Assembly: GCA_022843095.1 (NCBI GenBank)
Contig: JALHOH010000002.1
Coordinates: 180,001 to 212,000 of the forward strand
Origin: Candidatus Saccharimonadota bacterium
GTDB taxonomy: Bacteria; Patescibacteriota; Patescibacteriia; 2-12-FULL-60-25
Length of the DNA: 32,000 nt
Direction: 5' to 3'
This document shows positions 5,927-29,041 of the stretch, piece by piece; positions within the stretch are counted from its first letter, which is position 1, and each line of letters starts with the position of its first letter. The translations under genes were made by a program, and so were the position numbers. The notes below the pieces were generated by a model that was not told where the DNA came from, made no database searches, and worked only from the letters and a program-made list of their open reading frames with translations.

Positions 5927-7165
5927 ATGAACCCTCGCCTTAAGCAGGCGCTGCTCGTGGTTGGCTTTCTTGCGATCGTCGCAGGCCTTGCATTCGCCTT
6001 GTATTACGTTTTTTTCCGCGAAGAACCGTCCCAAATTCTTCCTGAACCGACCCCGATCCCCGGCGCACCGCTTCCCTCAGCGGGCACTGGCCGTCCCACG
6101 ACGACTGTTTCCGTGCCTGGCGCACTTCCATCTGCCCCAACGCCGGCCGCTCCTCCATCTCCTCTCGCGTTCCCCTCTCCTGAAGCGGCAGAAGCGCCTC
6201 GGACCACCGTTCTCAACGAAAACGTGTCACAGGCGATATCGCTTTCACAGTCCGGCGGCGTACGTTTGTACGACAGTTTTTCCGGACGGTTTTTCCGCAT
6301 CACGGATGAAGGGCAGCGCATTCCCCTGGGCACGCAAACCTTCTTTAACGTCGCGGATGTCGCGTGGGCCAATAGTTCCGATAAGGCCGTGTTGACCTAT
6401 CCCGACGGATTCAAAACGCTCTACGATTTCACCACCGGACAACAGGTGACGCTTCCCAAACACTGGGAATCCTTTCAATTTTCTCCGCAGGACGACAAGA
6501 TCATCGCGAAAAGCATGGGAAACAACGAGGATAACCGGTTTCTTGTGATCGCGAACCCGGACGGAACCAACGCCGAAGCGGTGGAAGCGCTGGGAACCAA
6601 TGCCGATCGCGTTCAAGTAAGCTGGTCTCCCAACAACCAAGTTGTCGCCTTTGCGCAGACCGCCGAAGGGATCGGGTTTGATCGTCAACAAATCCTACTG
6701 GTCGGCAAAAACCGGGAAAACTTTAAAGCGTTGGTTGTGGAAGGACGTGGATTTTTGCCCAGCTGGTCGCCCTCTGGAGAAAACGTGCTCTACAGCGTGT
6801 ACGACGGATCCAGCGGATTCCGCCCATCCCTTTGGATCAGCGGCGCATCTGGCGATAACGTGAATGCAAACCGACGCAACATCCAACTGCAAACGTGGGC
6901 GGATAAATGTACCTGGAAAGACGAACAGACCGTATTCTGTGCCGTCCCAACCCAACTTCCGGAAGGCGCAGGCCTTCAGCGCTCTGTCGCAGATGGCATT
7001 CCTGATCAGATCTATCGCGTCGATCTTGCGACCGGACAAACGGTGAATCTTGGCCAGCCGGACGGAAATCCAACGATCAATCGCCTGCTCATTGCACCGG
7101 ACGGTCGCGCCGTTTACTACAACGACCGCATCACGGGTCGCCTTGTGCGCTATGCTCTCCCCTGA
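5927..7165 (+). CDS. Membrane-anchored TolB-like (PD40/WD40-like) beta-propeller protein
   Basis: 412 aa. An N-terminal TM helix (LLVVGFLAIVAGLAFALYYVFF) is followed by a Pro-rich linker and then repeated propeller-type motifs: LVIANPDGTN, SWSPNNQVVAF, PSWSPSGENVLYS and LLIAPDGRAVYY. Confidence 0.8.
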   Translation: MNPRLKQALLVVGFLAIVAGLAFALYYVFFREEPSQILPEPTPIPGAPLPSAGTGRPTTTVSVPGALPSAPTPAAPPSPLAFPSPEAAEAPRTTVLNENVSQAISLSQSGGVRLYDSFSGRFFRITDEGQRIPLGTQTFFNVADVAWANSSDKAVLTYPDGFKTLYDFTTGQQVTLPKHWESFQFSPQDDKIIAKSMGNNEDNRFLVIANPDGTNAEAVEALGTNADRVQVSWSPNNQVVAFAQTAEGIGFDRQQILLVGKNRENFKALVVEGRGFLPSWSPSGENVLYSVYDGSSGFRPSLWISGASGDNVNANRRNIQLQTWADKCTWKDEQTVFCAVPTQLPEGAGLQRSVADGIPDQIYRVDLATGQTVNLGQPDGNPTINRLLIAPDGRAVYYNDRITGRLVRYALP

Positions 7166-7838
7166 TCGTCCACGCGAACATCACGTCCTCCTTTTTAGCG
7201 TCTTGGGGCTCATGCTTCTTGTGCTTGGCGTGCTTGGATGGAACCTGTTTCATCAATCAAGTACGCGTTTCCGCATTGGGAATGCCCCTCCGTCACTCCA
7301 AGAGGATGCGCAGACAAAAAAACCAACGCTTCCTCCTGAATCTCCAAAAGCGCCCGTACGGGGGCCCGAAGACCCGCGGTATCCAACCGTGACCCTGTTC
7401 GCGGATTACACCTGTCTCTATTGCCGTGGCGTCGCGATGGAATTAGAACGCGTGGCCGCCGGTGGGATTGCATTTCGCTATGTGTGGCGTGATCTTCCGC
7501 ACACCGAAGAGCGGCCGGACGGCATTATTGCGAGTGCCGCTGCACGGTGCGCGCAAGATCAGGGAAAGTTCTGGCAACTCCACCCATTGCTACTGACAGC
7601 CAAGTCCTTTGACCTCAAATCCCTGCAAAGTCTGGCCACGCAAGCCGGTCTGGATCTGCCACGCTTCAACGCCTGCATGGACTCGGGAGAGATGGTTCCT
7701 TCCATCCAGCAAGAAGCGGAAGTCGCTCGACAATCCAACATCACGGGGACGCCAACGCTGTTTATCGGATCAACGGTGATTGAGGGATACGTCACCGCCG
7801 AAGAACTTCGTGGCCTTATTCAACGCTCGACTCGCTGA
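7152..7838 (+). CDS. DsbA-family thiol:disulfide oxidoreductase, membrane-anchored
   Basis: I take the start as the ATG at 7152 (MLSPDRPREHHVLLFSVLGLMLLVLGVLGW is a TM anchor) rather than the ORF-track start at 7050, which lies deep inside the upstream gene. The CXXC active site is YTCLYCRG. The cis-Pro loop GTPTLFIG is typical of DsbA/thioredoxin-fold proteins. Confidence 0.8.
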   Translation: MLSPDRPREHHVLLFSVLGLMLLVLGVLGWNLFHQSSTRFRIGNAPPSLQEDAQTKKPTLPPESPKAPVRGPEDPRYPTVTLFADYTCLYCRGVAMELERVAAGGIAFRYVWRDLPHTEERPDGIIASAAARCAQDQGKFWQLHPLLLTAKSFDLKSLQSLATQAGLDLPRFNACMDSGEMVPSIQQEAEVARQSNITGTPTLFIGSTVIEGYVTAEELRGLIQRSTR

Positions 7839-7839
7839 C

Positions 7840-10389
7840 ATGTTTGCTCGACGCCTGTGTTCCGTCGTACTGGTGACGGGAGGACTCCTCGCGCCGTATT
7901 TTGGAATCGCTGCCACCAACCGCGAGGTGATTTGCGATGTCGCCCGAACGTGCGCTCGGAGCGGTCCTGGCTGCGCTCCTGGTTCCACCTGCAACACAAG
8001 TCAGGGTGTCGTAGAAGAATGTCGCATCACTGTCGCCGAACAGGGTCGGTGTGTTACCGATCAAGAACAACGGGACATGGTGGCAGATGCGCAGTATTTT
8101 ACCCGCGAACGTGTCGTACCTGGACGCGTGGAACGAACCATTTGTTGTCGCTGCCGTCGCGCCGGGTCTGGTGATAAATGCGTGACCTTCACGAACGTTT
8201 CGGATTGCGGGATGAACACCATTGATCGGCATCCCTCGATGATCAGTTTGCAATCGCAAGGGGCGAATGCGCCGGTCACTTGTGATGAAGAAAAAATCCC
8301 CGATTCCCAATGCCTTACGGTTGCAAACGGCGGATCCTGCCAAAACACCCCGACGGATGCCGTCACCGCATTCACCACCCAAGCCAGCACACCATCGCTC
8401 ACGGATCAGGTCAGCGATACTCTGACCCAAGCCGTACGCCCGTCCATTACCCCGAATCTCTCCGTCCCGATTCCCGGCCTCACATTCTCAAGCGCAGAGA
8501 AGGCCGGCGGAACGGTGCGCGTCAGCTTCCTTGGGCAATATATCGCCGCGGTCTATCGCTATGCCGTGTCCATCGTGGTGGTTGTCGCAACGATCATGGT
8601 GGTATATGGCGGCTTCTTATATCTCATTAGCCCCATTGCCGGAGATGCCTCCCGAGGAATGGAGATCATCAAAGACGCGCTCATGGGGACGGTCGTTTTG
8701 CTTGCCGCGTACCTGATTTTACAAACCATCAATCCACGGCTAACAGACTTGGAGTCCCTCAATTTGAATTACATCGCACGTACCGAATACGGCGAAGGTG
8801 AGGGGCAAAACGAAGCGGTCCGCGATATTTCTAGCGGCGCGTGTGCCGAGCTCCCACGTCTCGCCAGCATCCGCTCTGATCAAATGATCGCCGTCCCCCG
8901 CTATTATCAATTCGCATCTCCCTGGGGGGGCCAAGCATTTGGACGGAACCTGATCGGGCAATCGGAGCTCCCCGCCTGCACGTCCGCATCCACCCAAAGC
9001 CAGAATTGTACCGGGACCTTCGGCCAAGGGGCATGTGGGGTCACGTCGCTCGCCTCTGTGCTTGCGTATTACAACGTCCAAGGGGCAAACGGCCGAATTA
9101 CACCGCTAGATACCGGAGCGTATGCCGTACGGAATGGCTTTCGTCCACACAATGCGGGTACGACGCCTGGCGCGTTTTGTTCGGATGCGTTTCGACGGGA
9201 ATATCCTGGCTTTGAATGTGAGTCGCTGGGGAGCAACGTGACGCGCGCCATTCAAGCCTTGCGAAACCACCAACCCGTGATTTTTCATTGCGCACGATGC
9301 GCCGTCACGCTGAAAAACGGCCAACCGGGATTTGGCAGTCGTGGAAGCGGACACTACATGGTGCTGACGGGTGTGTCGGATGATGGGCAAACCTTTGCCA
9401 TTCATGACGTCGGCCATGCGGATGGAACGGCAGCCGCCGCCATCTCCGCCGCAGTTCTGCGTACGCAATCGATGTGGCTCATCTATCCACGCGGATCCGC
9501 GCCGGGGACCTCCACAACCGGAACACGTCCTGCAACCCCTGGAACGGGAACGGTAGCCGCGGCGGGAGCCTGCGCGCCGACGGGTGGCCAGAGTGCCATT
9601 ACCGCGACCTCCGGCGATCTGACCATCGCAAAATTCGCCTATCGGCCAAACGGAAACACGGGGTGGCAGCATGAGGGCTCCCCGCTTGTCTTCCCGACCC
9701 GTCTCGCGAACCAAACGGCGGATGTCCAATTGTTCATCTATTTGCATGGGCTGAATACGCATGCAAATACGTTTGAAACATCCGGCTACTGGCGAGAAAT
9801 CCGCCCCGAACTCCAACGCGTCGCCGGGAGTCATAACGTCGTGTTCGTCGCGCCACATTTCCAAGCGGGCTCAAACTATTATTCTGGATTCACCTTTTCC
9901 TCGTTTTATAGCGCGGTGACCGCTGCACTGGCCGCGAATCCTGCCACACGACAACTTCGCGTCGATCGCATTGTGATTGGAGGTCACAGCGCCGCCACCT
10001 GCCAAGGAAGCCCCGTCCCACTCCGTGATGCCATGCGGAATAAACCCGCAAACACGCGAGGCGTTGTGGCGTTTGATGGATGCCTTGGAACCGAACTGAA
10101 GCAGAATAATTTTTCCGATCCTGGAGGATTCGTCTTCTTTAACCCAGACCTTTCGGGAATGGGGATTGATCGAGATACCACTCCGCCAACCAATCGCTAT
10201 CTTCTGACGCGCGAAAGTTATGGACTCGTCTCACACGCCTGCCCACCGTACGTCGGTCGCGGAGTCGCCTGTTTCAAGCATCCGACAGAACAATGGTGGT
10301 CGTTTGAAACACGACTTGGACACGCCGAAAGTGTGCAAGAAATGACCAAATACCTCATCCAAGGATTCTTCCCACCGGTTTCTCCGTAA
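7840..10389 (+). CDS. Secreted Cys-rich protein with a pilin-like two-helix hairpin, a C39-like cysteine peptidase domain and an alpha/beta-hydrolase domain
   Basis: I take the start as the ATG at 7840, 1 nt after the DsbA stop, which gives the signal peptide MFARRLCSVVLVTGGLLAPYFGIAA. The N-terminal module is Cys-rich and contains an ICCRC motif. The TM hairpin is YAVSIVVVVATIMVVYGGFLYLISP...ALMGTVVLLAAYLILQTINPRL. The C39-like motifs are VPRYYQFASPW, GACGVTSLASVLAYYN (Cys codon at 9034-9036) and GHYMVLTG (His codon at 9352-9354). The hydrolase motifs are LFIYLHG and IVIGGHSAA (Ser codon at 9988-9990). Confidence 0.8.
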   Translation: MFARRLCSVVLVTGGLLAPYFGIAATNREVICDVARTCARSGPGCAPGSTCNTSQGVVEECRITVAEQGRCVTDQEQRDMVADAQYFTRERVVPGRVERTICCRCRRAGSGDKCVTFTNVSDCGMNTIDRHPSMISLQSQGANAPVTCDEEKIPDSQCLTVANGGSCQNTPTDAVTAFTTQASTPSLTDQVSDTLTQAVRPSITPNLSVPIPGLTFSSAEKAGGTVRVSFLGQYIAAVYRYAVSIVVVVATIMVVYGGFLYLISPIAGDASRGMEIIKDALMGTVVLLAAYLILQTINPRLTDLESLNLNYIARTEYGEGEGQNEAVRDISSGACAELPRLASIRSDQMIAVPRYYQFASPWGGQAFGRNLIGQSELPACTSASTQSQNCTGTFGQGACGVTSLASVLAYYNVQGANGRITPLDTGAYAVRNGFRPHNAGTTPGAFCSDAFRREYPGFECESLGSNVTRAIQALRNHQPVIFHCARCAVTLKNGQPGFGSRGSGHYMVLTGVSDDGQTFAIHDVGHADGTAAAAISAAVLRTQSMWLIYPRGSAPGTSTTGTRPATPGTGTVAAAGACAPTGGQSAITATSGDLTIAKFAYRPNGNTGWQHEGSPLVFPTRLANQTADVQLFIYLHGLNTHANTFETSGYWREIRPELQRVAGSHNVVFVAPHFQAGSNYYSGFTFSSFYSAVTAALAANPATRQLRVDRIVIGGHSAATCQGSPVPLRDAMRNKPANTRGVVAFDGCLGTELKQNNFSDPGGFVFFNPDLSGMGIDRDTTPPTNRYLLTRESYGLVSHACPPYVGRGVACFKHPTEQWWSFETRLGHAESVQEMTKYLIQGFFPPVSP
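8431..8752 (+). repeat. Copy 1 of the highly conserved nucleotide block (pilin-like hairpin region) shared by the two tandem paralogs
   Basis: Long identical runs are visible between the copies. For example, ctatcgctatgccgtgtccatcgtggtggttgtcgcaacgatcatggtggtatatggcggcttctt here matches ctatcgctacgccgtgtccattgtcgtcgttgttgcgaccatcatggtggtatatggtggcttctt at 11000-11320. Confidence 0.8.
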
Positions 10390-10390
10390 T

Positions 10391-12457
10391 ATGCGACGCG
10401 TCCTGCTTGCACTCAGTCTCATCTCTTCCGTCCTGCTTTCCGCAGGAGATGCGTGGGCACGCACCAACCGTGAAGCATTCTGCGATCCGGCGCGTCGCTG
10501 TTTTGCGAGTGAAGCCTCCACCTGCGGATCAGGTCGCACCTGCGCCATCAACACGGTCGTAGACACCGTGTGCGGGTTGACCACCGTCGGCCAAGGACGC
10601 TGTCTTGCGGCAGAAGATTTGACCTGCATGAACACGGAGTCCTGTCTTTCACGGGAAGCCGTGGAGCCCGTCCGTGTTGAGCAATCCATCTGCTGCCGAT
10701 GTGGTTTGAGTACCGCACGCGATCGATGCGTCTCTTTTACAAACGTCACCACCTGCGCCGCGGACATGATCGATCGACATCCCTCGATGATCGCGTACCA
10801 CAACCGATCTGGCGCAACCGCGGATAGCCCCCAGGTCCAATGCGATCCGGTACAACTCTCTGAACAGGAGTGCTTGCCCGTGGCGCAAAATGGCACCTGC
10901 CAAAATCGTGCCGCCGATGTGGTCACCGTATTCACCGCACAAGCTGACCCAAGCGCTGGCCCTGGCCTCATCGAGCGAGCAAGCGATGCGCTGACCGGTG
11001 CCGTCCGACCTCCGATCACTCCCAACCTGTCCGTTCCCATTCCCGGCCTCACCTTTGCAACACCGGAAGCCGCTGGTGGCACCGTTCGCGTGAATTTCCT
11101 GGGACAGTATATCGCCGCTGTCTATCGCTACGCCGTGTCCATTGTCGTCGTTGTTGCGACCATCATGGTGGTATATGGTGGCTTCTTGTATCTGGTAAGC
11201 CCCATCGCCGGGAAAGCCACGAAAGGAAAGGAAATCATCAAAGACGCGCTCATGGGAACGGTGGTATTACTTTCCGCATACTTGATTTTAAACACCGTGA
11301 ATCCGCAGCTCACCAATTTGCGATCTCTGTCATTAGAAGAGATTCTTCCCGTCACTGACGCGATTCACGACTCCTCGGCTCGAGATGAAGAAAACAACAC
11401 GGGTCCAAATGGAACCGCCCAATCAGTCCCGGCAAATACTTCCGAACTCTGCACGACCGCTCCAGCACGCGACGCCTCCCCGGCGATTCGAAGACCGTTT
11501 GCACAAGCCGCTGCCACCTGTACGGACTACCCGCCAACGACCATCCCCACGCAAATTACGGCAAGTTATTGCAGCAATTTAAACGCGACGGTCAGCGATG
11601 GAAGCATTCGAAAGCGCATGCGCGCAAAGGTCACCCTCGTCCCTCAGCTCACCGGCTCCGCCCGAGATCACCTGGCGTGGTGCGCGAATTGCGCCGATCA
11701 TTTTTCTTGCAGCGCCCCGGAACGCACGGATGAACAATGCGTTCGACTTGCTGGAAGAAATGGAGAAGGGGTGCCATGCGCAGGAGGATTTGGCCTATTC
11801 TTGAGAGGCATGACGGCGAATTGTCACGGAAAACGCTTTGATCGAATGGATGGGTTGGATGGATTAACGTTTGGGATTCAAGACACAAACGCCTGGGATC
11901 TCCCAGGAATGCTCCGCGACTTTGAACAGACGGACCGAGATGCCTTCTTGCGCGTATTTGCGAACGCCGATCTCGCGGCGTGGTATCAAAATGGCTCGAT
12001 TCGTGCCGATTGGTTTTGTGAACAGCAAGTGCGTCAAAATGGGCTTGCTTGTAACGCCAACTTTCGACGTGGATTGGAAGCTGCTATGCGCGAACGTGGG
12101 ATGATCATTGCGCAACTTCGACGTGCGTATGCAGACTACACCCGATTTACGCGTATCGCTTCTGCGCATTTTCGAAGCGTCAAAGGACAGGCGATGTTTG
12201 CAGCGTGGTTAAATAACCCCGGACGATGCGGTGGCAGTCTCGCCCCCCTTGTACAGGCCTGCGGGAGACTTCCTGAGGAGGAAAAGTATGAATGTTTCCT
12301 GCGTGAAGCGGTGAACGTGCCTTGCCGCAATAATGCCACGGGAGCTGCAAGTCGCGCGCAATCCATTCGCACCGCATTGGCCAATATCCCCTTTTCCGTA
12401 ACTGCAGGCGAAATTGAACCGCTCGACGCGCTGATCAACCGCTGCCTCCCCCGATAA
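10391..12457 (+). CDS. Paralog of the previous gene: same signal peptide, Cys-rich module and pilin-like hairpin, but an unrelated Cys-rich C-terminal domain of unknown function
   Basis: 688 aa. The signal peptide is MRRVLLALSLISSVLLSAGDAWA. The segment VRPPITPNLSVPIPGLTF...FLGQYIAAVYRYAVSIVVVVATIMVVYGGFLYLVSP...LILNTVNPQL is nearly identical to the upstream gene. After about aa 320 the two sequences diverge completely. Confidence 0.8.
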   Translation: MRRVLLALSLISSVLLSAGDAWARTNREAFCDPARRCFASEASTCGSGRTCAINTVVDTVCGLTTVGQGRCLAAEDLTCMNTESCLSREAVEPVRVEQSICCRCGLSTARDRCVSFTNVTTCAADMIDRHPSMIAYHNRSGATADSPQVQCDPVQLSEQECLPVAQNGTCQNRAADVVTVFTAQADPSAGPGLIERASDALTGAVRPPITPNLSVPIPGLTFATPEAAGGTVRVNFLGQYIAAVYRYAVSIVVVVATIMVVYGGFLYLVSPIAGKATKGKEIIKDALMGTVVLLSAYLILNTVNPQLTNLRSLSLEEILPVTDAIHDSSARDEENNTGPNGTAQSVPANTSELCTTAPARDASPAIRRPFAQAAATCTDYPPTTIPTQITASYCSNLNATVSDGSIRKRMRAKVTLVPQLTGSARDHLAWCANCADHFSCSAPERTDEQCVRLAGRNGEGVPCAGGFGLFLRGMTANCHGKRFDRMDGLDGLTFGIQDTNAWDLPGMLRDFEQTDRDAFLRVFANADLAAWYQNGSIRADWFCEQQVRQNGLACNANFRRGLEAAMRERGMIIAQLRRAYADYTRFTRIASAHFRSVKGQAMFAAWLNNPGRCGGSLAPLVQACGRLPEEEKYECFLREAVNVPCRNNATGAASRAQSIRTALANIPFSVTAGEIEPLDALINRCLPR
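11000..11320 (+). repeat. Copy 2 of the conserved block shared by the tandem paralogs
   Basis: See copy 1. Weaker protein-level similarity extends over the whole N-terminal ~300 aa (7840-8752 against 10391-11320). Confidence 0.8.
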
Positions 12458-12494: not shown

Positions 12495-13835
12495 ATGCCA
12501 AAAACGCCGGAAAAATTGTATCGCTGTCGTGATTGCGATGCCCAGTTTTTAAAGTGGGCCGGACAATGTGATACCTGTGGTCATTGGGGAACCCTAGAGC
12601 AAACCACGCTCGCCGCGTCTGCCACCCACGCAGAAAAAACAACGGCGCGCGCCGGAAAAGCAGCGCTGATTCCCTTTGCAGAAACCCCGACCAAAGAAGG
12701 CGCCGTTCCCCTTCCCACAGGACTGTCGCTTTGGGATACCCTCCTTTCTGGTGGCCTGGTGCAGGGATCGGTGACGCTCGTGGGAGGTGAACCGGGGATT
12801 GGCAAATCCACCTTGCTTGCCCAGCTCTGCCTTTCGGTTGCAGCCCTTCCCGGAAACCGTGTGTGCTATGTCACCGGTGAAGAATCCCCTGCCCAGGTCG
12901 GAGGACGTCTACGCCGACTTGCAGGCGGCACCATTTCGGACCGGCTTTTTGCCGTAAACCACACGGATGCCCCAACCATTGCTGCCACGCTTTTGGCGGA
13001 ATGTCCCACGCTCACCATTATTGATTCCATTCAAACGTTACGCACCGAAGGGGTTGCTGGAGAGCCGGGAAACCCGACTCAGGTCAAAGCGTCAGCCGCG
13101 ATTATTACCGAGGCGGCAAAACGTGCCGGGGTGGCGGTTGTGTTCGTCGGGCAGGTCAATAAAGATGGCGACCTGGCCGGACCCCGATTGGTCGAGCACT
13201 TGGTTGACACGGTCCTCATGATGGAGGGTGATCGGTTGCAGGCGTTTCGATGGCTCCAGGTCCTCAAACATCGTTTTGGGACGACGGATCAAGCGGCGGC
13301 GCTCCACATGACCGAACATGGATTGGAAGAAATCAAAGATCCCTCCGCCCTCCTGCTTGCCGATCGACCAACGGGCGTTGCCGGTTCGGTCGTCACCTGT
13401 CTTGCAGATGGCCATCGCCCGGTGCTCTGCGAAATACAGGCGCTTGTGACCCCTGCCGGCTATGCAAATCCAACACGACGCGCAACCGGGGTCGACCAAA
13501 ATCGCGTGGGGATGATTCTTGCGGTGCTTGCGCGGCGCAGTGGTATTCCATTTGGCGATCAAGACGTGTTCGTGAATGCCGTTGGTGGCATTGACGCCAA
13601 AGATCCCTCCGCAGATCTTGCGATCGCGCTTGCCCTTGTCTCCGCCAAACACGACGTCGCCCTTCCCGCCGATGTGGTCGCCTGGGGAGAGCTGGGTCTT
13701 GCAGGAGAGATTCGCGCCGCCAAAAGCCAGGATCAACGTAAAAAAGAGGCGGAACGCCTGGGATTTCGCCCCGTCGCCGGAACCGGCAAAACCATCCGCG
13801 ACCTGGTGTACGCGTACAAACTCGGGAAAGGCTGA
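12495..13835 (+). CDS. radA: DNA repair protein RadA/Sms
   Basis: 446 aa. The N-terminal zinc ribbon is CRDCDAQFLKWAGQCDTCGHWGT. Walker A is GGEPGIGKSTLL. LKHRFG is a variant of the RadA KNRFG motif. A Lon-like C-terminal domain is present. Confidence 0.92.
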   Translation: MPKTPEKLYRCRDCDAQFLKWAGQCDTCGHWGTLEQTTLAASATHAEKTTARAGKAALIPFAETPTKEGAVPLPTGLSLWDTLLSGGLVQGSVTLVGGEPGIGKSTLLAQLCLSVAALPGNRVCYVTGEESPAQVGGRLRRLAGGTISDRLFAVNHTDAPTIAATLLAECPTLTIIDSIQTLRTEGVAGEPGNPTQVKASAAIITEAAKRAGVAVVFVGQVNKDGDLAGPRLVEHLVDTVLMMEGDRLQAFRWLQVLKHRFGTTDQAAALHMTEHGLEEIKDPSALLLADRPTGVAGSVVTCLADGHRPVLCEIQALVTPAGYANPTRRATGVDQNRVGMILAVLARRSGIPFGDQDVFVNAVGGIDAKDPSADLAIALALVSAKHDVALPADVVAWGELGLAGEIRAAKSQDQRKKEAERLGFRPVAGTGKTIRDLVYAYKLGKG

Positions 13836-13837: not shown

Positions 13838-15952
13838 TTATTCCAAATGCGCCGTGCGACGAAGCGCTTCCACACGCGCCTGCCAAAGGGGAAACCGGGA
13901 AAGCGTCGGGTCTTCTTTGAGACAGGTTTCCGCGAACCCCTTTGCGCGCGTCAGCAGATCGATATCTGTGAGTCGCGCCGCCTTAAACTCCGTAGCGCCG
14001 GATTGTGCCGTTCCCATCAAATTCCCACTTCCACGCAACTGAAGATCATACTCGGCGAGCGCAAAACCGTCTTCCGTTTTTTCCAGAATCTGTAATCGTT
14101 CCAACGATGTCCCTCCCGCATCTGTCAGCAAAAAGCAGGCGCTTTTTAACGACGAACGACCAACACGCCCACGAAATTGGTGCAGTTGCGCGAGCCCAAA
14201 CCGTTCGGCCCCTTCGATCAGCATCACGGTCGCATTCGGCACGTCCACACCGACCTCGATCACAGCGGTCGAGACAAGAACATCCAGCTGCTTTCCGCTA
14301 AATTGCTCCATCACTGCGTCTTTTTCTGCCGATTTTTGTCGCCCATGTAAAAGTCCCACCCGCAATCCGGCAAACGGTCCGGTCTTTAAACGCATCCATT
14401 CATCCGTTGCCGCGCGCACACCAAGATCATCCGACGCATCAATAAGCGGACACACGACAAACGCCTGCTCTCCACGCTGAACGGCGGCGCATACCGCTTG
14501 GTACGCCCGTTCCCGCGCCTCGCCGATGCATACCTGTGTGGTGATGGGAGTCCGGCCTGGGGGCTTTGAACGCAGCACCGTGACCTCCAAATCGCCGTAC
14601 AACGAAAGGGCAAGCGAACGCGGAATGGGTGTGGCGGTCATGGATAAAAAATGCGGAACACGACCATCCCGACGCGACGGGATGGAAAGCGCTTCGCGCT
14701 GCTCCACGCCAAACCGATGCTGTTCATCCACAACCGCGAAGGCTAAATCCGCAGGCAATCGTCCTGGCTGCAGCAGAGCATGCGTCCCAACCACCAACAA
14801 TTGCCCTCGTTCCAAGAGCGCTGGAATCTCGCTAGGCGCAAGCGGGCGGGATTCCCCCGCTTCCGTCCACAGGCGTTCTGTCCGCGTGAGCAACAGCACC
14901 GGGATGTGGTGCGGCGCGCACAATCGCCGCAAAGAAGCCGCGTGCTGCCGCGCCAAGATATCCGTCGGTGCCAGCATCGCTGCACTCCACCCATGACGTT
15001 GCACGTGCGCCATCAAAAACGCTGCGACCAGTGTTTTGCCCGCCCCCACATCGCCCTGCAAGAGACGACGCATCGGTCGCACCGTCCCTTTCCCATCCAT
15101 CGCCTGCATACAGGCCCACACCGCCTTTTTTTGGTCATCCGTCAGATCGAATGGCAGGGCGCTCACAAACCGCTTGGCAAACGTGGTATCGACGGGAATT
15201 CCGGGCGCTCCATGTGCATCGGCATCGTTCCTGGCATATCCAAGCGCCAACCGGTAGGTGACACATTCATCAAACGCCAAACGCCGACGCCCGTCTTCCG
15301 CTTCACGCATGGACAACGGGGCATGAATGGCGCGATACGCCTCAGCAAGTCCCAGGATCCCCTCTTCTTGCCGCGTCGATGCGGACAATGGGTCTTCCGG
15401 GAACACCACCTGACCAAGGACTTCATGCACCAACCGTCGATATGTTTTTTGCGTGAGCGATCCCGTCAACGGATACACCGGTGCCACCTGCCCTGCCGCA
15501 ACCGCGTCACGATCTCCCGGCTCCCACAACGGCTTAGCCATGGATTTTCCATAGTCAGGATGGTGCGTCACTTTGCCTGACAAAAAAATTTCCCGCCCGA
15601 TGGTCAATTCCTCCAACAACCACGGCTGATTAAAAAACGTGACGGAAAGCGACCCTGTTTCATCCTTGAGCACACAACGAATCAACTGCATGCGCTTCCG
15701 AAACGTTGGAAGCTTCCGACATTGCGCAACCATCCCTTTCACCGTGACCACCATCCCCACTTCCGCCGCGTGAATGGGAACGATGGTCGAATAGTCGTCA
15801 TATCGACGAGGATACGTTTGCAACAACTCGCCAATGGTTTGGATATCAAGCGCAGACCAGGCCTTGCGGACGGCCGGCGTCACCCCCTTCAAAAAACCGA
15901 CAGGATCCTCCCAATGAAGCATGCACGCATTTGACCATGCGCTCCGTTCCAC
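13838..15952 (-). CDS. recG: ATP-dependent DNA helicase RecG
   Basis: The helicase motifs are GDVGAGKT, VVDEQHRFG, SMTATPIPR and QLHQFRGRVGR, with an N-terminal wedge/OB region. The ORF-track start at 15952 is a GTG. An ATG at 15922 (MLHWEDP...) preceded by an extended -10 element is a plausible alternative start. Confidence 0.9.
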   Translation of the reverse strand: MERSAWSNACMLHWEDPVGFLKGVTPAVRKAWSALDIQTIGELLQTYPRRYDDYSTIVPIHAAEVGMVVTVKGMVAQCRKLPTFRKRMQLIRCVLKDETGSLSVTFFNQPWLLEELTIGREIFLSGKVTHHPDYGKSMAKPLWEPGDRDAVAAGQVAPVYPLTGSLTQKTYRRLVHEVLGQVVFPEDPLSASTRQEEGILGLAEAYRAIHAPLSMREAEDGRRRLAFDECVTYRLALGYARNDADAHGAPGIPVDTTFAKRFVSALPFDLTDDQKKAVWACMQAMDGKGTVRPMRRLLQGDVGAGKTLVAAFLMAHVQRHGWSAAMLAPTDILARQHAASLRRLCAPHHIPVLLLTRTERLWTEAGESRPLAPSEIPALLERGQLLVVGTHALLQPGRLPADLAFAVVDEQHRFGVEQREALSIPSRRDGRVPHFLSMTATPIPRSLALSLYGDLEVTVLRSKPPGRTPITTQVCIGEARERAYQAVCAAVQRGEQAFVVCPLIDASDDLGVRAATDEWMRLKTGPFAGLRVGLLHGRQKSAEKDAVMEQFSGKQLDVLVSTAVIEVGVDVPNATVMLIEGAERFGLAQLHQFRGRVGRSSLKSACFLLTDAGGTSLERLQILEKTEDGFALAEYDLQLRGSGNLMGTAQSGATEFKAARLTDIDLLTRAKGFAETCLKEDPTLSRFPLWQARVEALRRTAHLE
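15929..15937 (-). promoter_or_regulatory. Extended -10 element TGgTCAAAT (minus strand), 6 nt upstream of the recG ATG at 15922
   Basis: The minus strand reads gcaTGgTCAAATgcgtgcATG, the same geometry seen at 2778-2795 and 15977-15994. Confidence 0.35.
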
Positions 15953-23823: not shown

Positions 23824-24426
23824 TTACTCCATGCGTTCCAAGCGTGTCACTTGCCACCCCGCACCCACCGGCGCGAGCGTCACTTCATACCGCGCAATAT
23901 CCACGGGCGTGGCCAAGTTGTTTTCTTCGGTTGTGACGTGCGCCTCCACCGTCAGCAACACCTGCGCATTCCCCTTCACCGGCGCATTCGTAATGCGAGC
24001 GGCCAGGCCACGGACCGTACGAGCCCATGTTCCCGCTGTACGCGGATGAGCTTGCTGCAACGCAGTGCGCTCTGTCTCAAGAAAGGCCCGTACCGCCGTG
24101 GACGCATCCGCACTCCCCTGACGCATCGCTTCAAAATTATCGTAGTTACTGCCCGTTTGTGCCCGGGTCACAAAATCCAACGCAAACCGCTTCGCCGATT
24201 CGGCAAGCGCAAGCTCGCCCTGATCCACGGGAGCAGGTGGCGCAACCTTTGCAATCGCGGGAGCCGGCGTTTCGGGCACCTCCGGCTGAAGGGCCTGCGA
24301 GTTGATCGGCGGTGGCTGCGCGGGCGGATTCGCCGTGCGCCATAACGGTAACAGCACGAACACAATCGCAAAGATCACGGCACCGATCGCAAGCAAGATC
24401 AAAAAGATGGCAAGATAGCGTTTCAT
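23824..24426 (-). CDS. Bitopic membrane protein with a Pro-rich linker and a ~120-aa external domain (VirB8-like candidate)
   Basis: 200 aa. The N-terminal TM helix is YLAIFLILLAIGAVIFAIVFVLL, followed by the PPAQPPPINSQALQPEVPETPAP linker. The C-terminal alpha+beta domain ends YEVTLAPVGAGWQVTRLE. It lies 9 nt downstream of VirB4. Confidence 0.7.
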   Translation of the reverse strand: MKRYLAIFLILLAIGAVIFAIVFVLLPLWRTANPPAQPPPINSQALQPEVPETPAPAIAKVAPPAPVDQGELALAESAKRFALDFVTRAQTGSNYDNFEAMRQGSADASTAVRAFLETERTALQQAHPRTAGTWARTVRGLAARITNAPVKGNAQVLLTVEAHVTTEENNLATPVDIARYEVTLAPVGAGWQVTRLERME

Positions 24427-24435
24427 ACTGGAAGA

Positions 24436-26331
24436 TTACCCGGACTGCTGAGCTTGTTGAAATTTCTTGCGCTCTTCTTCGAGTTTCAGCAACTGTTGCG
24501 GGTTGGTCGTGACGATCTGATCCTCGGTGTAAGACGCAACGACCTGAATAGCCGCATGTTTTGCACCGGCAAAAAAGATCCCTTCACCCACCCCGGATTC
24601 CAGCAGCAAATATTTCTCCGATTGCGTCAGCAAAAACGTCCGCGCCACCAAATCAATCGCCGCCGGAGACTGCTTGAGCAACATCTGCATCGAGCTGTTC
24701 GTCACGATGGCCTGGCCATACGGCGAGGTCAAAAAGTCGTTCACGTCTTGAGTGATCGTCGTCACACCCAAGAAATACTTACGGCATCGCTTGACCAAGG
24801 CGAAGATAAACTTAGCAGAATCCTCGGATTGCATGAGCCACCACGCTTCGTCGATCACGAGAATGCGCTTTTTTCGTTCGCTGCGTACCACGTTCCAAAT
24901 GTAGTTGACGATGGTATAGATCGCCATTGGACGCAATTCGTCTTCCAAATCACGAACCGAGAAAATAACCAGTTGGTTGGTCATCTGCACCGTTGTCGGT
25001 GAATTGAGCAACCCCGAAAACGTCCCTTCCGTGTACTTTTTCAATTTCACGATCAGTTCAGCCGTCCCCTCCATCCCCTCCAAGATATCCTGAAAATCTT
25101 GCAAAATCGGCGGCTCCACGCGAGTTAAATCCGAACCGGGGACGATATCCTTCTTTGCGTACGTTTCAAGCAACGCACGATCCAAAATGGAATCCTCCGT
25201 CGTCGTGATTTTTCCCAGCATGAGACGCAACAATCCCTTAATCGTGATGACGGCGCTTCGAATGATGTCTTCGACGGCATACGCCTCACCTGTCGGACGC
25301 GGCAAGTCAAACGGGTTGATCTTGGATTTCGACGACAATGAGATATTAATATACGTCCCCCCAACCGCATCGGAAAGGTGCTTATACTCCATTTCCGGAT
25401 CGATAACGATCACATCCACGCCGACCATCATGGAACGAATGATCTCCAATTTCACGGTGTAGGACTTCCCTGCACCGGACGTGGCAAAAATCACCGCATT
25501 CGCATTTTGCAACGAAAACCGATCAAACAAGATGAGCGAGTTGTTGTGACGATTCACGCCGTACAAGATGCCGTTGTCGCTGGTCAGATCGGCGCTCGTG
25601 AACGGGAACGACGACGCAATCGGCGACGTGCTCATGTTAAAGGTGATCTGCAGTTCATCATTGCATACTGGCAAACACGAACTAAACCCCTGTTCCGCCT
25701 GAAAATAGGCACGGCGGGTGTAGATCAACATGGATCCGAACGTCCCTTCGACATTCGAGGAAAGCCGTTCAAGCTCTTCTTTATCCTTCGAATAAAACGT
25801 GCAATAAAAGGCGAATTGAAAAAAGTGTTCGATTCCTTGGGTCAGGTCATCTCGCAGCTGTTCGACGTCGCGAAGCGCCGTTTCCGTGATCGGATCGCGC
25901 GGCTTCCCGGATTCCGCATCCGTCGCAATCTGTGCTTCCAACACCCCCACTTTTTTCTTGAGCTGCTGCAAAATCACGTCCGCTTTGATGGGATAAAAGA
26001 ACATCGCAATATCCAGCTGCGCCGAAAGGTTGATAATCGGAGACGCCCATCCGACGGTGACATAGCGCGGATACGTAATGACAAACAGCGTTCGGCAAAA
26101 CACATCTCCAAGCCGCACATACGATGGCTCGATCTTCATCGACGCCGGCGCAATCAAATCCTTGATGCTTGCGACGCCGCGACGATAAATACGCTCTTCT
26201 TCAAGGGCGGTGCGCTCTTCTGCCTGCTTCTGTTTTTGCTGCAGCTTGGACGGACCACGCTGGAGCTTGACGCCGTCTTCCAAAATCTCGGAAACGCCGA
26301 CAGTTTTTTGGGGCTGTGTTTCAAAGGCCAT
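24436..26331 (-). CDS. virB4: VirB4/TraC-type type IV secretion ATPase, ATPase portion
   Basis: 631 aa. Walker A is FATSGAGKSYTVK. Walker B is RILVIDEAWWLM. The downstream LGVTTITQDVNDF motif is typical of VirB4/TrbE ATPases. Confidence 0.9.
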   Translation of the reverse strand: MAFETQPQKTVGVSEILEDGVKLQRGPSKLQQKQKQAEERTALEEERIYRRGVASIKDLIAPASMKIEPSYVRLGDVFCRTLFVITYPRYVTVGWASPIINLSAQLDIAMFFYPIKADVILQQLKKKVGVLEAQIATDAESGKPRDPITETALRDVEQLRDDLTQGIEHFFQFAFYCTFYSKDKEELERLSSNVEGTFGSMLIYTRRAYFQAEQGFSSCLPVCNDELQITFNMSTSPIASSFPFTSADLTSDNGILYGVNRHNNSLILFDRFSLQNANAVIFATSGAGKSYTVKLEIIRSMMVGVDVIVIDPEMEYKHLSDAVGGTYINISLSSKSKINPFDLPRPTGEAYAVEDIIRSAVITIKGLLRLMLGKITTTEDSILDRALLETYAKKDIVPGSDLTRVEPPILQDFQDILEGMEGTAELIVKLKKYTEGTFSGLLNSPTTVQMTNQLVIFSVRDLEDELRPMAIYTIVNYIWNVVRSERKKRILVIDEAWWLMQSEDSAKFIFALVKRCRKYFLGVTTITQDVNDFLTSPYGQAIVTNSSMQMLLKQSPAAIDLVARTFLLTQSEKYLLLESGVGEGIFFAGAKHAAIQVVASYTEDQIVTTNPQQLLKLEEERKKFQQAQQSG

Positions 26332-26343
26332 ACGTCTTCGAGA

Positions 26344-27045
26344 TTATTCTTCAAGTTGAAGTTGATTCGCATCGACCAGCCGCTGCGTATCGTACAGTTC
26401 CGGATTGTACACCGTGTAAAACAGTTCAATTAACGACTGCGTATCCAATTGAACCGCAGAAAGCGACATGCTGGAGAGCCCTTGCTGGATTTGACTCACG
26501 CGCAACCCAAGATCGAACTTCTCTTTCTTGAACCGTTCTTCTGAGACGCGAATGGCCCCGCCCGGGGTCAAAATTTCGCTCATTCGTTGAAAGAACCCTT
26601 TGCGTTCAGAGGTCGCCGGATTCAGGGGAACGACCACGAAAAACCGCTTCTGCATGATATCGCCCAGCTGCACCAGCTGTTTGATGAACGCGATGTAATC
26701 CTTGATCTGACGCTTCAACAGTTCATTTTGCGTTTCTTGATCGTGCGTCCGAACCTGCTGAAGATAGTTATCGATATTCATCTTCCGCGATTGGATGACG
26801 ATTTGAATAGGAAAATCGATCCCATTCAAAAACTGCATGTACGCTTGCACGATCGCATTTTGTTCATCGATGGATTTCAAAGAAAAGTTGATCGATGACA
26901 CCAGAAGGACGGCGCGAAGCGTTCCGTCCTTCATGATCACCGTGTCCTCTTTGATTTCCGCGATATCTAAATAGCGTTGGGTCGGTACCCCAGGCTTTGG
27001 TCCGGCGAGCTTCGCGCTTTGCATAGAATCACTCTTCTTCGGCAT
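26344..27045 (-). CDS. VirB4 N-terminal domain encoded as a separate ORF, in the same frame as the ATPase ORF and separated from it by one TAA
   Basis: 233 aa. LDIAEIKEDTVIMKDGTLRAVLLVSSINFSLKSIDEQNAIVQAYMQFLNGIDFPIQIVIQSRK resembles the N-terminal CagE/TrbE/VirB-type domain of VirB4 proteins. The coordinates 27045 and 26331 are congruent modulo 3. Confidence 0.75.
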   Translation of the reverse strand: MPKKSDSMQSAKLAGPKPGVPTQRYLDIAEIKEDTVIMKDGTLRAVLLVSSINFSLKSIDEQNAIVQAYMQFLNGIDFPIQIVIQSRKMNIDNYLQQVRTHDQETQNELLKRQIKDYIAFIKQLVQLGDIMQKRFFVVVPLNPATSERKGFFQRMSEILTPGGAIRVSEERFKKEKFDLGLRVSQIQQGLSSMSLSAVQLDTQSLIELFYTVYNPELYDTQRLVDANQLQLEE

Positions 27046-27463
27046 TATACACCCCTCCCGTATTTACCGTGAGCGCCAGGTCACGTAGGCGTGTGGATGA
27101 GGGGGCAATTTTCGCCGGTGGAGGTGGCGGCGGTACTTCAGCGGCACGTTGCGCCAATGCTTTTAACTCATAATCATTCAACCGCTTGTCCCAGACGCGC
27201 AACATCGGTCGGCTATATGTTTGCAAAAAATTCACGAAGAACAGATGGAATGGCTGACCGTTGATTTTGAGAAATGCGAACACCGCTGCAATCCCGACCG
27301 TCGGAAGCGCCGTCAAAATAAACGGCGCCAGGGTAAAAATGCTGTATTCGATGAACACGATGAAGGTCGCCGCAATGCAGATCAAAAACTGGCGCACGGT
27401 GATGGGCCCCAAAATCTTGTCTTCGCTGTCAATAAATTGCGGAACGATAAACTTTTCTGGCAT
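27029..27463 (-). CDS. PrgI-family (VirB3-like) small membrane protein
   Basis: 144 aa. The N-terminal signature is VPQFIDSEDKILGPITVRQFL, followed by two TM helices (ICIAATFIVFIEYSIF and FILTALPTVGIAAVFAFL). It overlaps the next gene by 17 nt. Confidence 0.75.
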   Translation of the reverse strand: MPEKFIVPQFIDSEDKILGPITVRQFLICIAATFIVFIEYSIFTLAPFILTALPTVGIAAVFAFLKINGQPFHLFFVNFLQTYSRPMLRVWDKRLNDYELKALAQRAAEVPPPPPPAKIAPSSTRLRDLALTVNTGGVYNAEEE

Positions 27464-27466
27464 AGG

Positions 27467-29038: not shown

Positions 29039-29041
29039 ATG

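What the first reader, a model, noticed from the sequence alone, without database searches (positions are those of the whole stretch)
7840..12457. Tandem paralogs with a conserved signal peptide, Cys-rich module and pilin-like hairpin, but swapped C-terminal domains
The two adjacent genes, separated by 1 nt, share about 300 N-terminal residues. The shared part includes a signal peptide and a Cys-rich module with conserved ICCRC, FTNV..C, IDRHPSMI and C..V..G.CQN landmarks. It ends in an almost identical two-helix hairpin (FLGQYIAAVYRYAVSIVVVVATIMVVYGGFLYL[IV]SPIAG...IIKDALMGTVVLL[AS]AYLIL[QN]T[IV]NP[RQ]L). After the hairpin the two proteins are unrelated. The hairpin resembles TrbC/VirB2-type and CPR-type T4SS pilin domains, which have two hydrophobic helices and a short basic loop. 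With a signal peptide plus two TM passes, both the N-terminal module and the C-terminal domain should face outward. A constant delivery or anchoring module with exchangeable catalytic heads recalls polymorphic toxin or effector logic. I do not know of a described example fused to a pilin-like hairpin. These genes could supply the otherwise missing VirB2-like component of the minus-strand secretion operon.
Basis: partly seen in the sequence, partly recalled or inferred. Interest (0 to 1): 0.8.

Follow-up and report, generated by a model that had tools for sequence, protein, structure and literature searches.

The report
Secretion-pilin core fused to wall-cutting enzymes
Two neighbouring genes of an ultrasmall (Patescibacteria) bacterium each embed the small membrane hairpin of a type IV secretion pilin in a large exported protein, and they carry different enzyme "heads"; related genomes hold whole sets of such genes, which suggests a so far undescribed way of presenting cell-wall-cutting enzymes at the cell surface.

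Summary
Gene A (7840-10389, 849 aa) and gene B (10391-12457, 688 aa) lie 1 nt apart. They share 58% identity over their first ~300 residues (E 2e-94) and nothing after that.

The shared hairpin matches Pfam T4SS_pilin PF18895: B scores above the curated cut-off and A just below. A profile of the 113-residue core retrieves ordinary short Patescibacteria pilins at E 1e-17 to 1e-35. TrbC/VirB2 itself is not matched.

Head A is a C39-like cysteine peptidase followed by a new, canonical alpha/beta-hydrolase. Head B is an orphan all-helical 16-Cys domain with four known copies.

In 74 related genome loci (Uhrbacteria-like) I found 145 hairpin ORFs. Of these, 136 are at least 400 aa, and they occur in arrays of 1-5 genes. 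Heads of the 128 proteins analysed fall into at least 21 unrelated families. The annotated ones are mostly peptidoglycan enzymes: M15/VanY, glucosaminidase, SLT, Amidase_2, 3D and C39.

The arrays sit at one conserved site: ClpB, TolB-like protein, DsbA-like oxidoreductase, array, RadA, RecG. No immunity genes lie between array members.

Best reading: these are disulfide-rich "modular T4SS pilins" that anchor or display wall hydrolases, in effect a VirB2-VirB1 fusion. Coupling to a pilus or to the T4SS is inferred, not shown. It is a new variant of a known kind.

The parts
5927..7165 (+). 412-aa membrane-anchored protein with weak PD40/beta-propeller (TolB-like) signals. It is a conserved upstream neighbour of the array.
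   Evidence: Weak Pfam PD40 and beta-propeller hits. N-terminal TM segment. tblastn homologue in the same position in 50 of 74 related loci and in L076/L077.
7152..7838 (+). DsbA-like thiol-disulfide oxidoreductase, membrane anchored, with a CLYC active-site motif at 7413-7424. It ends 1 nt before gene A. The ORF is open from 7050; ATG 7152 is the likely start.
   Evidence: Pfam Thioredoxin_4 at 3.5e-18 and DSBA at 2e-11. CxxC motif and TM segment. Homologue directly upstream of the array in 60 of 74 loci and in L076/L077.
7840..10389 (+). Gene A, 849 aa: signal peptide, Cys-rich N-module, pilin core, C39-like peptidase, alpha/beta-hydrolase.
7840..7914 (+). A: predicted Sec signal peptide (aa 1-25, ...YFGIAA|TN).
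   Evidence: Hydropathy peak at aa 6-25. Inferred from the sequence; no dedicated predictor was run.
7915..8349 (+). A: N-terminal Cys-rich module (aa 26-170, 14 Cys, includes ICCRC).
   Evidence: Cys positions. Aligned with B, P0002 and P0010. No Pfam, NCBIfam or PDB hit.
8437..8775 (+). A: conserved 113-aa pilin core (ITPNLSVPIPGL, TM1, VVYGGFLYL, loop, TM2, NPRLTDLESL). Pfam T4SS_pilin covers aa 234-296, that is 8539-8727.
   Evidence: Pfam 23.6 bits. Core HMM 152 bits. The core profile hits short PF18895 pilins.
9004..9408 (+). A: Peptidase_C39_2-like papain-fold cysteine peptidase (aa 389-523). The candidate catalytic residues are Cys399 (9034-9036) and His505 (9352-9354).
   Evidence: Pfam 42.3 bits against a cut-off of 24. 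The Cys and His align with PDB 3ERV, a putative C39-like peptidase. Motif positions.
9619..10386 (+). A: divergent alpha/beta-hydrolase (esterase-like), with HG at aa 636-637, Ser717 in GGHSAA, Asp746 and His828.
   Evidence: AlphaFold2 with a 28-sequence alignment gave pLDDT 86.4 and pTM 0.82. Foldseek against PDB found feruloyl esterases, cutinases/PETases and CE1 esterases at E 1e-6 to 1e-4, TM 0.45-0.5. The motifs follow strands b3, b5, b7 and b8. No Pfam or PDB sequence hit. 32 relatives among 1.84 billion representatives.
10391..12457 (+). Gene B, 688 aa: signal peptide, Cys-rich N-module, pilin core, orphan Cys-rich helical head.
10460..10909 (+). B: N-terminal Cys-rich module (aa 24-173, 16 Cys, includes ICCRC).
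11006..11344 (+). B: conserved pilin core (aa 206-318). Pfam T4SS_pilin covers aa 240-302, that is 11108-11296.
   Evidence: Pfam 28.0 bits, above the cut-off of 26.6. Core HMM 156 bits.
11630..12454 (+). B: orphan head domain (aa 414-688), predicted all-alpha. The whole head (aa 319-688) holds 16 Cys, and 12 Cys are invariant in the 4-sequence alignment of this domain. Conserved motif [DE].L[DG]G.T[FY]GI.
   Evidence: Relatives only in L001, L002 and L020 (34-41% identity). No Pfam, PHROG or PDB hit, even with a profile. hhalign probability below 2% against every other head family. The metagenome scan found only the L001 contig again. Single-sequence AlphaFold2 failed at pLDDT 38.6.
12495..13835 (+). 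radA, the conserved downstream boundary of the array.
   Evidence: Pfam. Present in 45 of 74 loci.
13838..15952 (-). recG, a conserved neighbour.
   Evidence: tblastn hit in 37 of 74 loci. RecG Pfam domains in L076.
23824..31926 (-). Monoderm-type T4SS gene cluster, 11-19 kb downstream: VirB4 P-loop part 24436-26331, TrsD-like 26344-27045, PrgI/VirB3 27029-27463, and a polytopic 726-aa protein 29746-31926. comF-like (23134-23814) and PLD (21856-23130) genes lie next to it. The cluster holds no pilin-core gene.
   Evidence: Pfam and NCBIfam. TM counts. The core HMM finds no other hit in the window.

Best explanation
A and B belong to a family of modular, exported, disulfide-rich envelope proteins of Uhrbacteria-like (ABY1-type) Patescibacteria. 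Each is built around the VirB2-like hairpin of the CPR T4SS pilin family.

Proposed mechanism:
1. A Sec signal peptide is cleaved (inferred).
2. The two helices insert with the short loop in the cytoplasm, so both the N-terminal Cys-rich module and the C-terminal head face outward (inferred from topology, Cys content and the nature of the heads).
3. The co-transcribed membrane-bound DsbA-like enzyme forms their many disulfides (inferred from conserved adjacency).
4. The heads are hydrolases that act on the cell wall. Head A combines a papain-fold cysteine peptidase with a serine esterase. Head B is an unknown helical domain. In relatives the heads are M15/VanY, amidase, glucosaminidase, SLT, 3D and C39 domains.
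5. The pilin core is conserved far beyond what a plain anchor needs. It places these enzymes at, or feeds them into, the T4SS/pilus assembly site. The array would then do the VirB1-type job of opening peptidoglycan, in the cell's own wall and probably in the host's wall at the contact site, with a set of non-redundant tools.

The architecture, the homology and the synteny are shown. Topology, disulfide dependence, the wall substrate and the T4SS coupling are inferred.
For: Homology of the core to short CPR pilins:
- Pfam PF18895 matches both proteins.
- The core profile finds 514 proteins at E<=1e-5. The best 120 are all 113-226 aa, and most carry PF18895.
- Short pilins share all three motifs: P.IPGL, YGGF and NP.LV.L.

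Selection on the core:
- 87% amino-acid identity between A and B despite largely diverged synonymous sites.
- The Y-G-G-F motif is invariant in the alignments.

Family and heads:
- 145 hairpin ORFs in 74 loci, of which 136 are >=400 aa.
- At least 21 unrelated head clusters among the 128 proteins analysed.
- Pfam-annotated heads are peptidoglycan enzymes or esterases.
- 34 of 37 multi-gene loci carry only different heads.

Extracytoplasmic location:
- An 8-Cys CCxC N-module in about half of the members, and a median of 12 Cys per head.
- 0-6 Cys in the 11 other window proteins checked.
- A DsbA-like gene adjacent in 60 of 74 loci.

Head identities.

Link to the T4SS:
- A T4SS cluster lies in the same window, and it has no pilin gene of its own.
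- Published work states that ABY1 T4SS loci commonly include comF, recG and radA, that most Patescibacteria with VirB2 homologues lack VirB1, and that the pilin array is essential in Southlakia (PMC12102498; PMC10633639).
Against: - There is no experimental evidence that any PF18895 protein forms a pilus, and none for these long forms.
- The most conserved neighbours are housekeeping or envelope genes (ClpB, TolB-like, DsbA, RadA, RecG), not T4SS genes. In L076 no T4SS gene lies within 10 kb, and none lies within the 6-kb flanks of the 74 loci.
- About half of the head clusters, including B's, have no recognisable function.
- The C39-like domain and the alpha/beta-hydrolase are not established peptidoglycan hydrolase families.
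- The enzymes could act only on the cell's own wall.
- Signal peptide and topology were not predicted with dedicated tools.
Confidence: 0.6

Rival explanations
1. Housekeeping autolysins. The proteins are the cell's own wall-remodelling enzymes (carboxypeptidase, amidase, glucosaminidase, lytic transglycosylase, endopeptidase). They are held at the membrane by a two-helix anchor that happens to descend from, or gave rise to, the small 'pilin' family, and they have no functional link to the T4SS.
For: The annotated heads are the classic autolysin set. The conserved neighbours are housekeeping genes, and T4SS genes are absent within 6-10 kb in relatives. Arrays carry non-redundant heads, as a housekeeping enzyme set would. 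There are no immunity genes.
Against: A plain anchor would not keep 87% identity and invariant YGGF and NP motifs across old paralogues. Head content differs greatly between related genomes, with 1-5 genes drawn from at least 21 families. That is unlike a core housekeeping set. Many heads are lineage-restricted orphans: B's head has 4 known copies and A's tail has 32 relatives among 1.84e9 proteins. The short homologues are encoded within T4SS clusters and are essential in Southlakia (PMC12102498; PMC10633639).
Confidence: 0.25
2. Polymorphic effectors or toxins. The constant N-half is a trafficking module recognised by the T4SS. The heads are released and delivered to the host or to competitor cells as toxins.
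For: The design is a constant N-part with a hypervariable C-terminal domain. N-half and head have different histories: the A and B cores are 86% identical to each other but at most 63% identical to any other member, including members with the same head at 56%. Long low-complexity linkers follow the core. Wall-degrading effectors delivered by a T4SS are known in Xanthomonas (PMC8740702, title and abstract seen).
Against: No immunity gene follows any head; neighbours abut within <=99 nt in 29 of 36 same-strand pairs, and within 1 nt in the window. No releasing-peptidase or pre-toxin domain and no VirD4-binding domain was detected. The two TM helices would retain the protein in the producer's membrane unless it is cleaved.
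Confidence: 0.08
3. Major structural pilins. A and B themselves polymerise as the bulk subunits of the T4SS pilus of this organism.
For: They are the only pilin-core genes in the 32-kb window that holds the T4SS cluster. No short pilin occurs in the 74 related loci.
Against: Each subunit would carry 60-90 kDa of extra domains. By my own estimate from the published geometry of VirB2-type pili, that is hard to fit on a homopolymer. The rest of the genome, where short pilins may lie, was not seen.
Confidence: 0.05

Closest known systems
VirB2-like pilin arrays of Patescibacteria T4SS (Pfam T4SS_pilin PF18895; Southlakia epibionticum SEML1 pilin array; Quinonero-Coronel et al. 2025, PMC12102498; Wang et al. 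2023, PMC10633639)
   Same: Same hairpin core with the P.IPGL, YGGF and NP.L motifs. Same signal peptide. Tandem arrays of divergent paralogues. A Patescibacteria host. A neighbourhood with radA, recG and comF, as reported for ABY1 T4SS loci.
   Different: Described pilins are small (about 110-220 aa), with nothing beyond the core. Here the core sits inside 400-950-aa proteins with an N-terminal Cys-rich module and enzymatic C-terminal heads. The array lies next to a DsbA-like gene and is not inside the virB4 cluster. A and B are 58% identical (86% in the core), above the 54% maximum reported for arrays.
VirB1-type, T4SS-associated peptidoglycan hydrolases of monoderm conjugation systems (PrgK, TcpG, TrsG/CD419: SLT plus CHAP)
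   Same: Membrane-anchored, often multi-domain wall hydrolases associated with a T4SS. Papain-fold peptidase and SLT-type heads occur in the family.
   Different: The anchor is a pilin-type hairpin rather than a single N-terminal helix. The heads are far more diverse. A has C39-like and alpha/beta-hydrolase domains rather than CHAP and SLT. The genes are not inside the T4SS operon.
Modular type IV pilins (e.g. PilB and PilC of Streptococcus sanguinis; PMC8179133)
   Same: The same design principle: a small pilin module acts as carrier and a bulky functional module is grafted onto it through a linker. Many architectures exist (264 reported), including in CPR lineages.
   Different: The pilin superfamily is unrelated: type IV pilin with a class III signal peptide and one N-terminal helix, against a VirB2-like two-helix hairpin. 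The assembly machine differs. Here modules sit on both ends, and the heads are mostly hydrolases rather than adhesins.
Polymorphic toxin systems (CDI, Rhs, LXG, and Xanthomonas T4SS effectors with XVIPCD)
   Same: A constant N-terminal part with unrelated, swappable C-terminal domains. Some of those toxins are peptidoglycan hydrolases.
   Different: No immunity genes, no known trafficking or releasing domains, and two TM helices that should retain the protein.

Membership tests
Pfam T4SS_pilin (PF18895), CPR VirB2-like pilins | Score at or above the Pfam gathering cut-off of 26.6 bits | tested here: met
   B scores 28.0 bits. A scores 23.6 bits, just below the cut-off. Both score 152-156 bits against a profile of the family core, and that profile retrieves PF18895 proteins at E 1e-17 to 1e-35.
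Pfam T4SS_pilin (PF18895), CPR VirB2-like pilins | Small protein (about 110-220 aa) made of a signal peptide plus the hairpin only | tested here: not met
   A is 849 aa and B is 688 aa, with about 200 aa before the core and 370-540 aa after it. The short members are 113-226 aa.
Pfam T4SS_pilin (PF18895), CPR VirB2-like pilins | Encoded within or next to the virB4 cluster | tested here: inconclusive
   The virB4 P-loop gene lies 12 kb downstream in the same window, separated by radA, recG, a histidine kinase and tRNA genes. Relatives show no T4SS gene within 6-10 kb.
Pfam T4SS_pilin (PF18895), CPR VirB2-like pilins | Polymerises into an extracellular filament | not testable with these tools
   No multimer prediction or experiment was available.
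TrbC/VirB2 pilins (Pfam PF04956) | Sequence match to the TrbC/VirB2 profile or to solved VirB2/TraA pilins | tested here: not met
   No PF04956 hit at E<=1. The core profile against PDB gives only chance hits to the HtrII TM hairpin, E 0.4-1.4.
TrbC/VirB2 pilins (Pfam PF04956) | Signal peptide plus two hydrophobic helices joined by a short cytoplasmic loop, with both termini outside | tested here: met
   Hydropathy profile and the signal-peptide-like N-terminus. Both flanks are Cys-rich and a DsbA partner is present. The orientation is inferred, not measured.
Peptidase_C39_2 (PF13529), papain-fold cysteine peptidase (head of A) | Pfam score above the cut-off, with the catalytic Cys and His present | tested here: met
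   42.3 bits against a cut-off of 24. Cys399 and His505 align with the Cys and His of PDB 3ERV.
Alpha/beta-hydrolase fold, serine esterase type (tail of A) | The alpha/beta-hydrolase fold | tested here: met
   Model pLDDT 86.4. 166 PDB matches at E<=0.001, and those listed are alpha/beta-hydrolase-fold enzymes (feruloyl esterases, cutinases/PETases, CE1, esterase D), with TM 0.45-0.5.
Alpha/beta-hydrolase fold, serine esterase type (tail of A) | Ser-Asp-His triad in canonical order, with a nucleophile elbow and an HG oxyanion motif | tested here: met
   HG 636-637 follows b3, Ser717 (G-H-S-A-A) follows b5, Asp746 follows b7 and His828 follows b8. Asp and His are invariant in the 28-sequence alignment; the Ser is replaced in several. 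The spatial triad could not be measured because no coordinates were available.
VirB1-type T4SS peptidoglycan hydrolase | A recognised peptidoglycan-cleaving domain (SLT, CHAP, lysozyme or M23) | tested here: inconclusive
   A has a C39-like clan-CA peptidase and an esterase, and B is unknown. Family members with the same core carry SLT, glucosaminidase, Amidase_2, M15/VanY and 3D domains.
Polymorphic toxin system | A conserved N-terminal part with unrelated C-terminal domains | tested here: met
Polymorphic toxin system | A cognate immunity gene immediately downstream of each toxin domain | tested here: not met
   The gaps DsbA-A and A-B are 1 nt each, and B-radA is 37 nt. In relatives, 29 of 36 same-strand neighbour gaps are <=99 nt.

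The most novel reading that the evidence does not exclude
The VirB2-like core really is assembled by the T4SS, so these are 'modular T4SS pilins'. The filament or stub would carry wall-cutting enzymes, and a Cys-rich binding module, on its outer surface or at its tip. Each genome's array would then be an interchangeable tool set that lets the epibiont drill through the wall of its particular host. This would be the first enzyme-bearing conjugative-type pilus. It would also give the essential but functionally unexplained Patescibacteria T4SS a concrete job.
Probability: 0.2. Interest if true: 0.85.

Novelty: new variant of a known kind. Interest (0 to 1): 0.62.

Why it matters
The T4SS and its pilin array are essential in the one genetically tractable Patescibacterium, yet reviews call their role "completely unknown" (PMC11665869). 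[quoted passage not shown]

This locus shows a lineage in which the pilin core and wall hydrolases are one polypeptide. The heads are diverse, non-redundant and genome-specific, and a dedicated DsbA-like partner sits alongside.

That gives a concrete, testable hypothesis for how ultrasmall epibionts open cell walls. It also tests whether the PF18895 "pilin" is a filament subunit or a display and anchoring module. Finally, it exposes several uncharacterised extracellular enzyme domains: A's alpha/beta-hydrolase tail, B's helical head, and the large head clusters with no Pfam match.

Tried and rejected
1. B head identity. No method gave a hit:
- phmmer against PDB;
- Pfam at E<=10 and PHROGs;
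- a 4-sequence profile against PDB;
- hhalign against all other head clusters, probability below 2%;
- a word-index search of 5.8e9 proteins, which found only the protein itself;
- a metagenome scan, which found only the L001 contig again;
- single-sequence AlphaFold2, pLDDT 38.6, unusable, so no fold search was run on it.
I considered a by-eye resemblance of D..G..T.GI to the T4-lysozyme D20-T26 region. I dropped it because no catalytic Glu sits at the expected distance.

2. Recent gene conversion as the cause of the near-identical hairpins. Rejected: nucleotide identity is 81% and only 60% of identical residues share a codon.

3. Other pilin-core genes in the window. The small membrane ORFs at 17582-18451 were candidates, but the core HMM finds none. 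ORF 18535-18954 is a spurious reading across tRNA-Arg.

4. Source record. P0001 and P0146 are genes B and A from an unnamed NCBI contig of 525,788 bp. The exact look-ups returned no record name. No GTDB representative is close; the best has RecG at 60% identity.

5. NCBIfam gave nothing for A, B or the unannotated T4SS-cluster ORFs.


Full report
OBSERVATION

Gene A (7840-10389, 849 aa) and gene B (10391-12457, 688 aa) lie on the + strand, 1 nt apart. BLASTP aligns A 24-312 with B 23-318 at 58% identity, E 2e-94, and finds nothing significant beyond that.

Both proteins start with a hydrophobic signal-peptide-like segment that ends in an AxA-type site. Both have two strongly hydrophobic helices, at A 234-298 and B 240-304.

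Identity between A and B is uneven:
- signal peptide, 27%;
- N-terminal Cys-rich module, 39-50%;
- VPIPGL segment, 80%;
- hairpin, 87%.

In the hairpin the DNA is 81% identical, and only 60% of identical residues share a codon (25% in the VPIPGL segment). The paralogues are therefore old, and the core is held by purifying selection rather than by recent copying.

WHAT THE SHARED PART IS

It matches A at 23.6 bits, just below. TrbC/VirB2 PF04956 gives no hit at E<=1.

A homologue search with B 1-320 found 25 proteins, the named ones from Patescibacteria. Aligning them shows that the truly constant unit is a 113-residue core:
- a juxtamembrane motif I-T-P-x-L-x-V-P-I-P-G-L;
- helix 1;
- an invariant V-Y-G-G-F;
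- a short loop (G-D-x-K-x-G-K);
- helix 2;
- N-P-x-L-x-x-L.

A profile of this core finds 514 proteins at E<=1e-5. The best 120 are all ordinary short pilins of 113-226 aa, and most are already tagged PF18895. These short proteins consist of a signal peptide and the same three motifs and little else.

The core profile matches no solved pilin. Only chance hits to the HtrII transmembrane hairpin appear. The link to VirB2 therefore rests on the Pfam family and on published structure-based annotation (PMC10633639; PMC12102498).

THE HEADS

Head A has two parts.

The first is a Peptidase_C39_2 domain (aa 389-523, 42 bits). Its Cys399 and His505 align with the putative C39-like peptidase 3ERV.

The second is a 260-residue tail with no Pfam or PDB sequence match. 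An exhaustive search of 1.84 billion representatives found only 32 relatives. Most of them have the same pilin-core, C39, tail architecture.

AlphaFold2 with that alignment gave a confident model, pLDDT 86.4 and pTM 0.82. Foldseek placed it among alpha/beta-hydrolases: feruloyl esterases, cutinases/PETases and CE1 esterases, at E about 1e-6 and TM 0.45-0.5. The HG motif, Ser717 (GGHSAA), Asp746 and His828 follow strands 3, 5, 7 and 8, as in canonical serine esterases.

Head B (aa 414-688 conserved) is predicted all-helical, and the whole head (aa 319-688) holds 16 Cys. It has only three relatives, in L001, L002 and L020, at 34-41% identity. It resisted every annotation attempt.

THE FAMILY AND ITS LOCUS

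A scan of one genome per GTDB species returned 74 loci. Most are Candidatus Uhrbacteria or unnamed Patescibacteria MAGs, and some carry an evidently wrong "Gammaproteobacteria" label.

These loci hold 145 ORFs that hit the core HMM, and 136 of them are at least 400 aa. The shorter ones are mostly cut by contig ends. Each locus has 1-5 such genes.

Heads of the 128 proteins found by motif search fall into 21 BLAST clusters, or 27 once the database hits are added. No profile-level similarity links B's cluster to any other.

Domains recognised by Pfam are Peptidase_M15/VanY, Peptidase_C39_2/C39, Glucosaminidase, SLT, Amidase_2, 3D, FGE-sulfatase-like and SGNH/DUF459 esterases. The SGNH/DUF459 esterases sit N-terminal of the hairpin. 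The representatives tested from several of the largest head clusters show no recognisable head domain.

About half of the members carry an 8-Cys CCxC N-module. Others have different Cys-rich modules, an SGNH domain, or none. Heads have a median of 12 Cys. The 11 other window proteins checked have 0-6 Cys.

The arrays occupy one conserved chromosomal site: ClpB, a variable large ORF, a TolB-like 412-aa protein, a DsbA-like oxidoreductase, the array, RadA, RecG. tblastn finds these neighbours in the following numbers of the 74 loci; the same order was confirmed with called genes in L076 and L077:

| Neighbour | Loci with a hit (of 74) |
|---|---|
| ClpB | 29 |
| TolB-like 412-aa protein | 50 |
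| DsbA-like oxidoreductase | 60 |
| RadA | 45 |
| RecG | 37 |

Neighbouring array genes abut one another; 29 of 36 same-strand gaps are <=99 nt. There is no room for immunity genes. In 34 of 37 multi-gene loci all heads differ.

The cores of A and B are 86% identical to each other. They are at most 63% identical to any other member, and only 56% identical to members that carry A's head type. N-half and head therefore have different evolutionary histories.

RELATION TO THE T4SS

The window carries a monoderm-type T4SS cluster on the minus strand:
- VirB4 P-loop part, 24436-26331;
- TrsD-like, 26344-27045;
- PrgI/VirB3, 27029-27463;
- a polytopic 726-aa protein;
- comF-like and PLD genes next to it.

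The core HMM finds no pilin-type gene in the window other than A and B.

Three published findings bear on this:
- T4SS loci of class ABY1 commonly include comF, recG and radA (PMC12102498).
- The pilin array is essential in Southlakia (PMC10633639).

On the other side, no T4SS gene lies within 6-10 kb of the array in relatives.

INTERPRETATION

The best-supported reading is as follows. These are exported, DsbA-dependent, modular proteins in which a VirB2-like pilin core carries an outward-facing N-module and an outward-facing hydrolase head. Each genome's array is a non-redundant set of envelope- or wall-cutting tools. Functionally this amounts to a VirB2-VirB1 fusion.

Architecture, homology, head identities (except B's) and synteny are shown. 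Topology, disulfide dependence, substrates and coupling to the T4SS or a pilus are inferred. I put 0.6 on this reading overall.

The main rival, at 0.25, is that these are housekeeping autolysins that use the hairpin only as an anchor. Polymorphic toxins (0.08) lack immunity genes. Homopolymeric major pilins (0.05) look sterically unlikely.

COMPARISON WITH WHAT IS KNOWN

The closest known family is the short CPR T4SS pilins and their arrays. A and B share the core but fail the "small hairpin-only protein" criterion.

The design principle matches the "modular pilins" of type IV pili, in which a functional module is grafted onto a pilin carrier (PMC8179133). That is a different pilin superfamily and a different assembly machine.

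Full-text searches found no description of PF18895/VirB2-like cores fused to hydrolases. Source annotations name such proteins only "pilin" or "peptidoglycan recognition family protein".

I therefore rate this a new variant of a known kind, with interest 0.62. The most novel reading not excluded is an enzyme-bearing T4SS pilus, at a probability of about 0.2.

Noticed in passing
window 2793-5876 (+): A 1027-aa ORF between clpB and the TolB-like gene has no Cys and no Pfam or NCBIfam hit. tblastn finds no relative in any of the 74 related loci. L076 has a different unannotated 777-aa ORF in the same slot, so this looks like a second variable position in an otherwise conserved gene order.
   Followed up: partly
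window 245-15952; loci L001-L074, L076, L077: The gene order ClpB, variable ORF, TolB-like 412-aa protein, DsbA-like, hairpin-head array, RadA, RecG is strongly conserved across Uhrbacteria-like genomes. The TolB-like protein may belong functionally with the DsbA-array unit.
   Followed up: partly
window 18540-18616 (-), 20082-20173 (-), 20277-20366 (+): tRNA-Arg(GCG), tRNA-Ser(GCT) and tRNA-Ser(TGA) genes. The mechanical ORF 18535-18954 (+) is a spurious reading across tRNA-Arg.
   Followed up: yes
window 24436-27045 (-): The VirB4 function is split into a TrsD-like N-terminal gene (26344-27045) and a P-loop gene (24436-26331). PrgI/VirB3 (27029-27463) overlaps the TrsD-like gene. Several cluster ORFs (27467-29038, 29042-29746, 23824-24426) have no family hit.
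   Followed up: partly
loci L049 (5299-7587), L060 (5167-7113): In two head clusters an SGNH/DUF459 esterase domain sits on the N-terminal side of the hairpin, in place of the Cys-rich module. Both ends of the core can therefore carry enzymes.
   Followed up: partly
loci L002, L003, L005, L006 and others (record titles): Many 'binchicken' MAG records that hold this Patescibacteria-type locus are titled 'uncultured Gammaproteobacteria bacterium'. This is probably a mislabel in the public records.
   Followed up: no
alignment A3 (tail of A and 27 relatives): In several relatives the predicted nucleophile Ser of the alpha/beta-hydrolase tail is replaced (GGHD, GGHG, GGHE, GGFG, GGNG). Asp746, His828 and two Cys stay invariant. 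Some copies may be inactive, or may use a different nucleophile.
   Followed up: no
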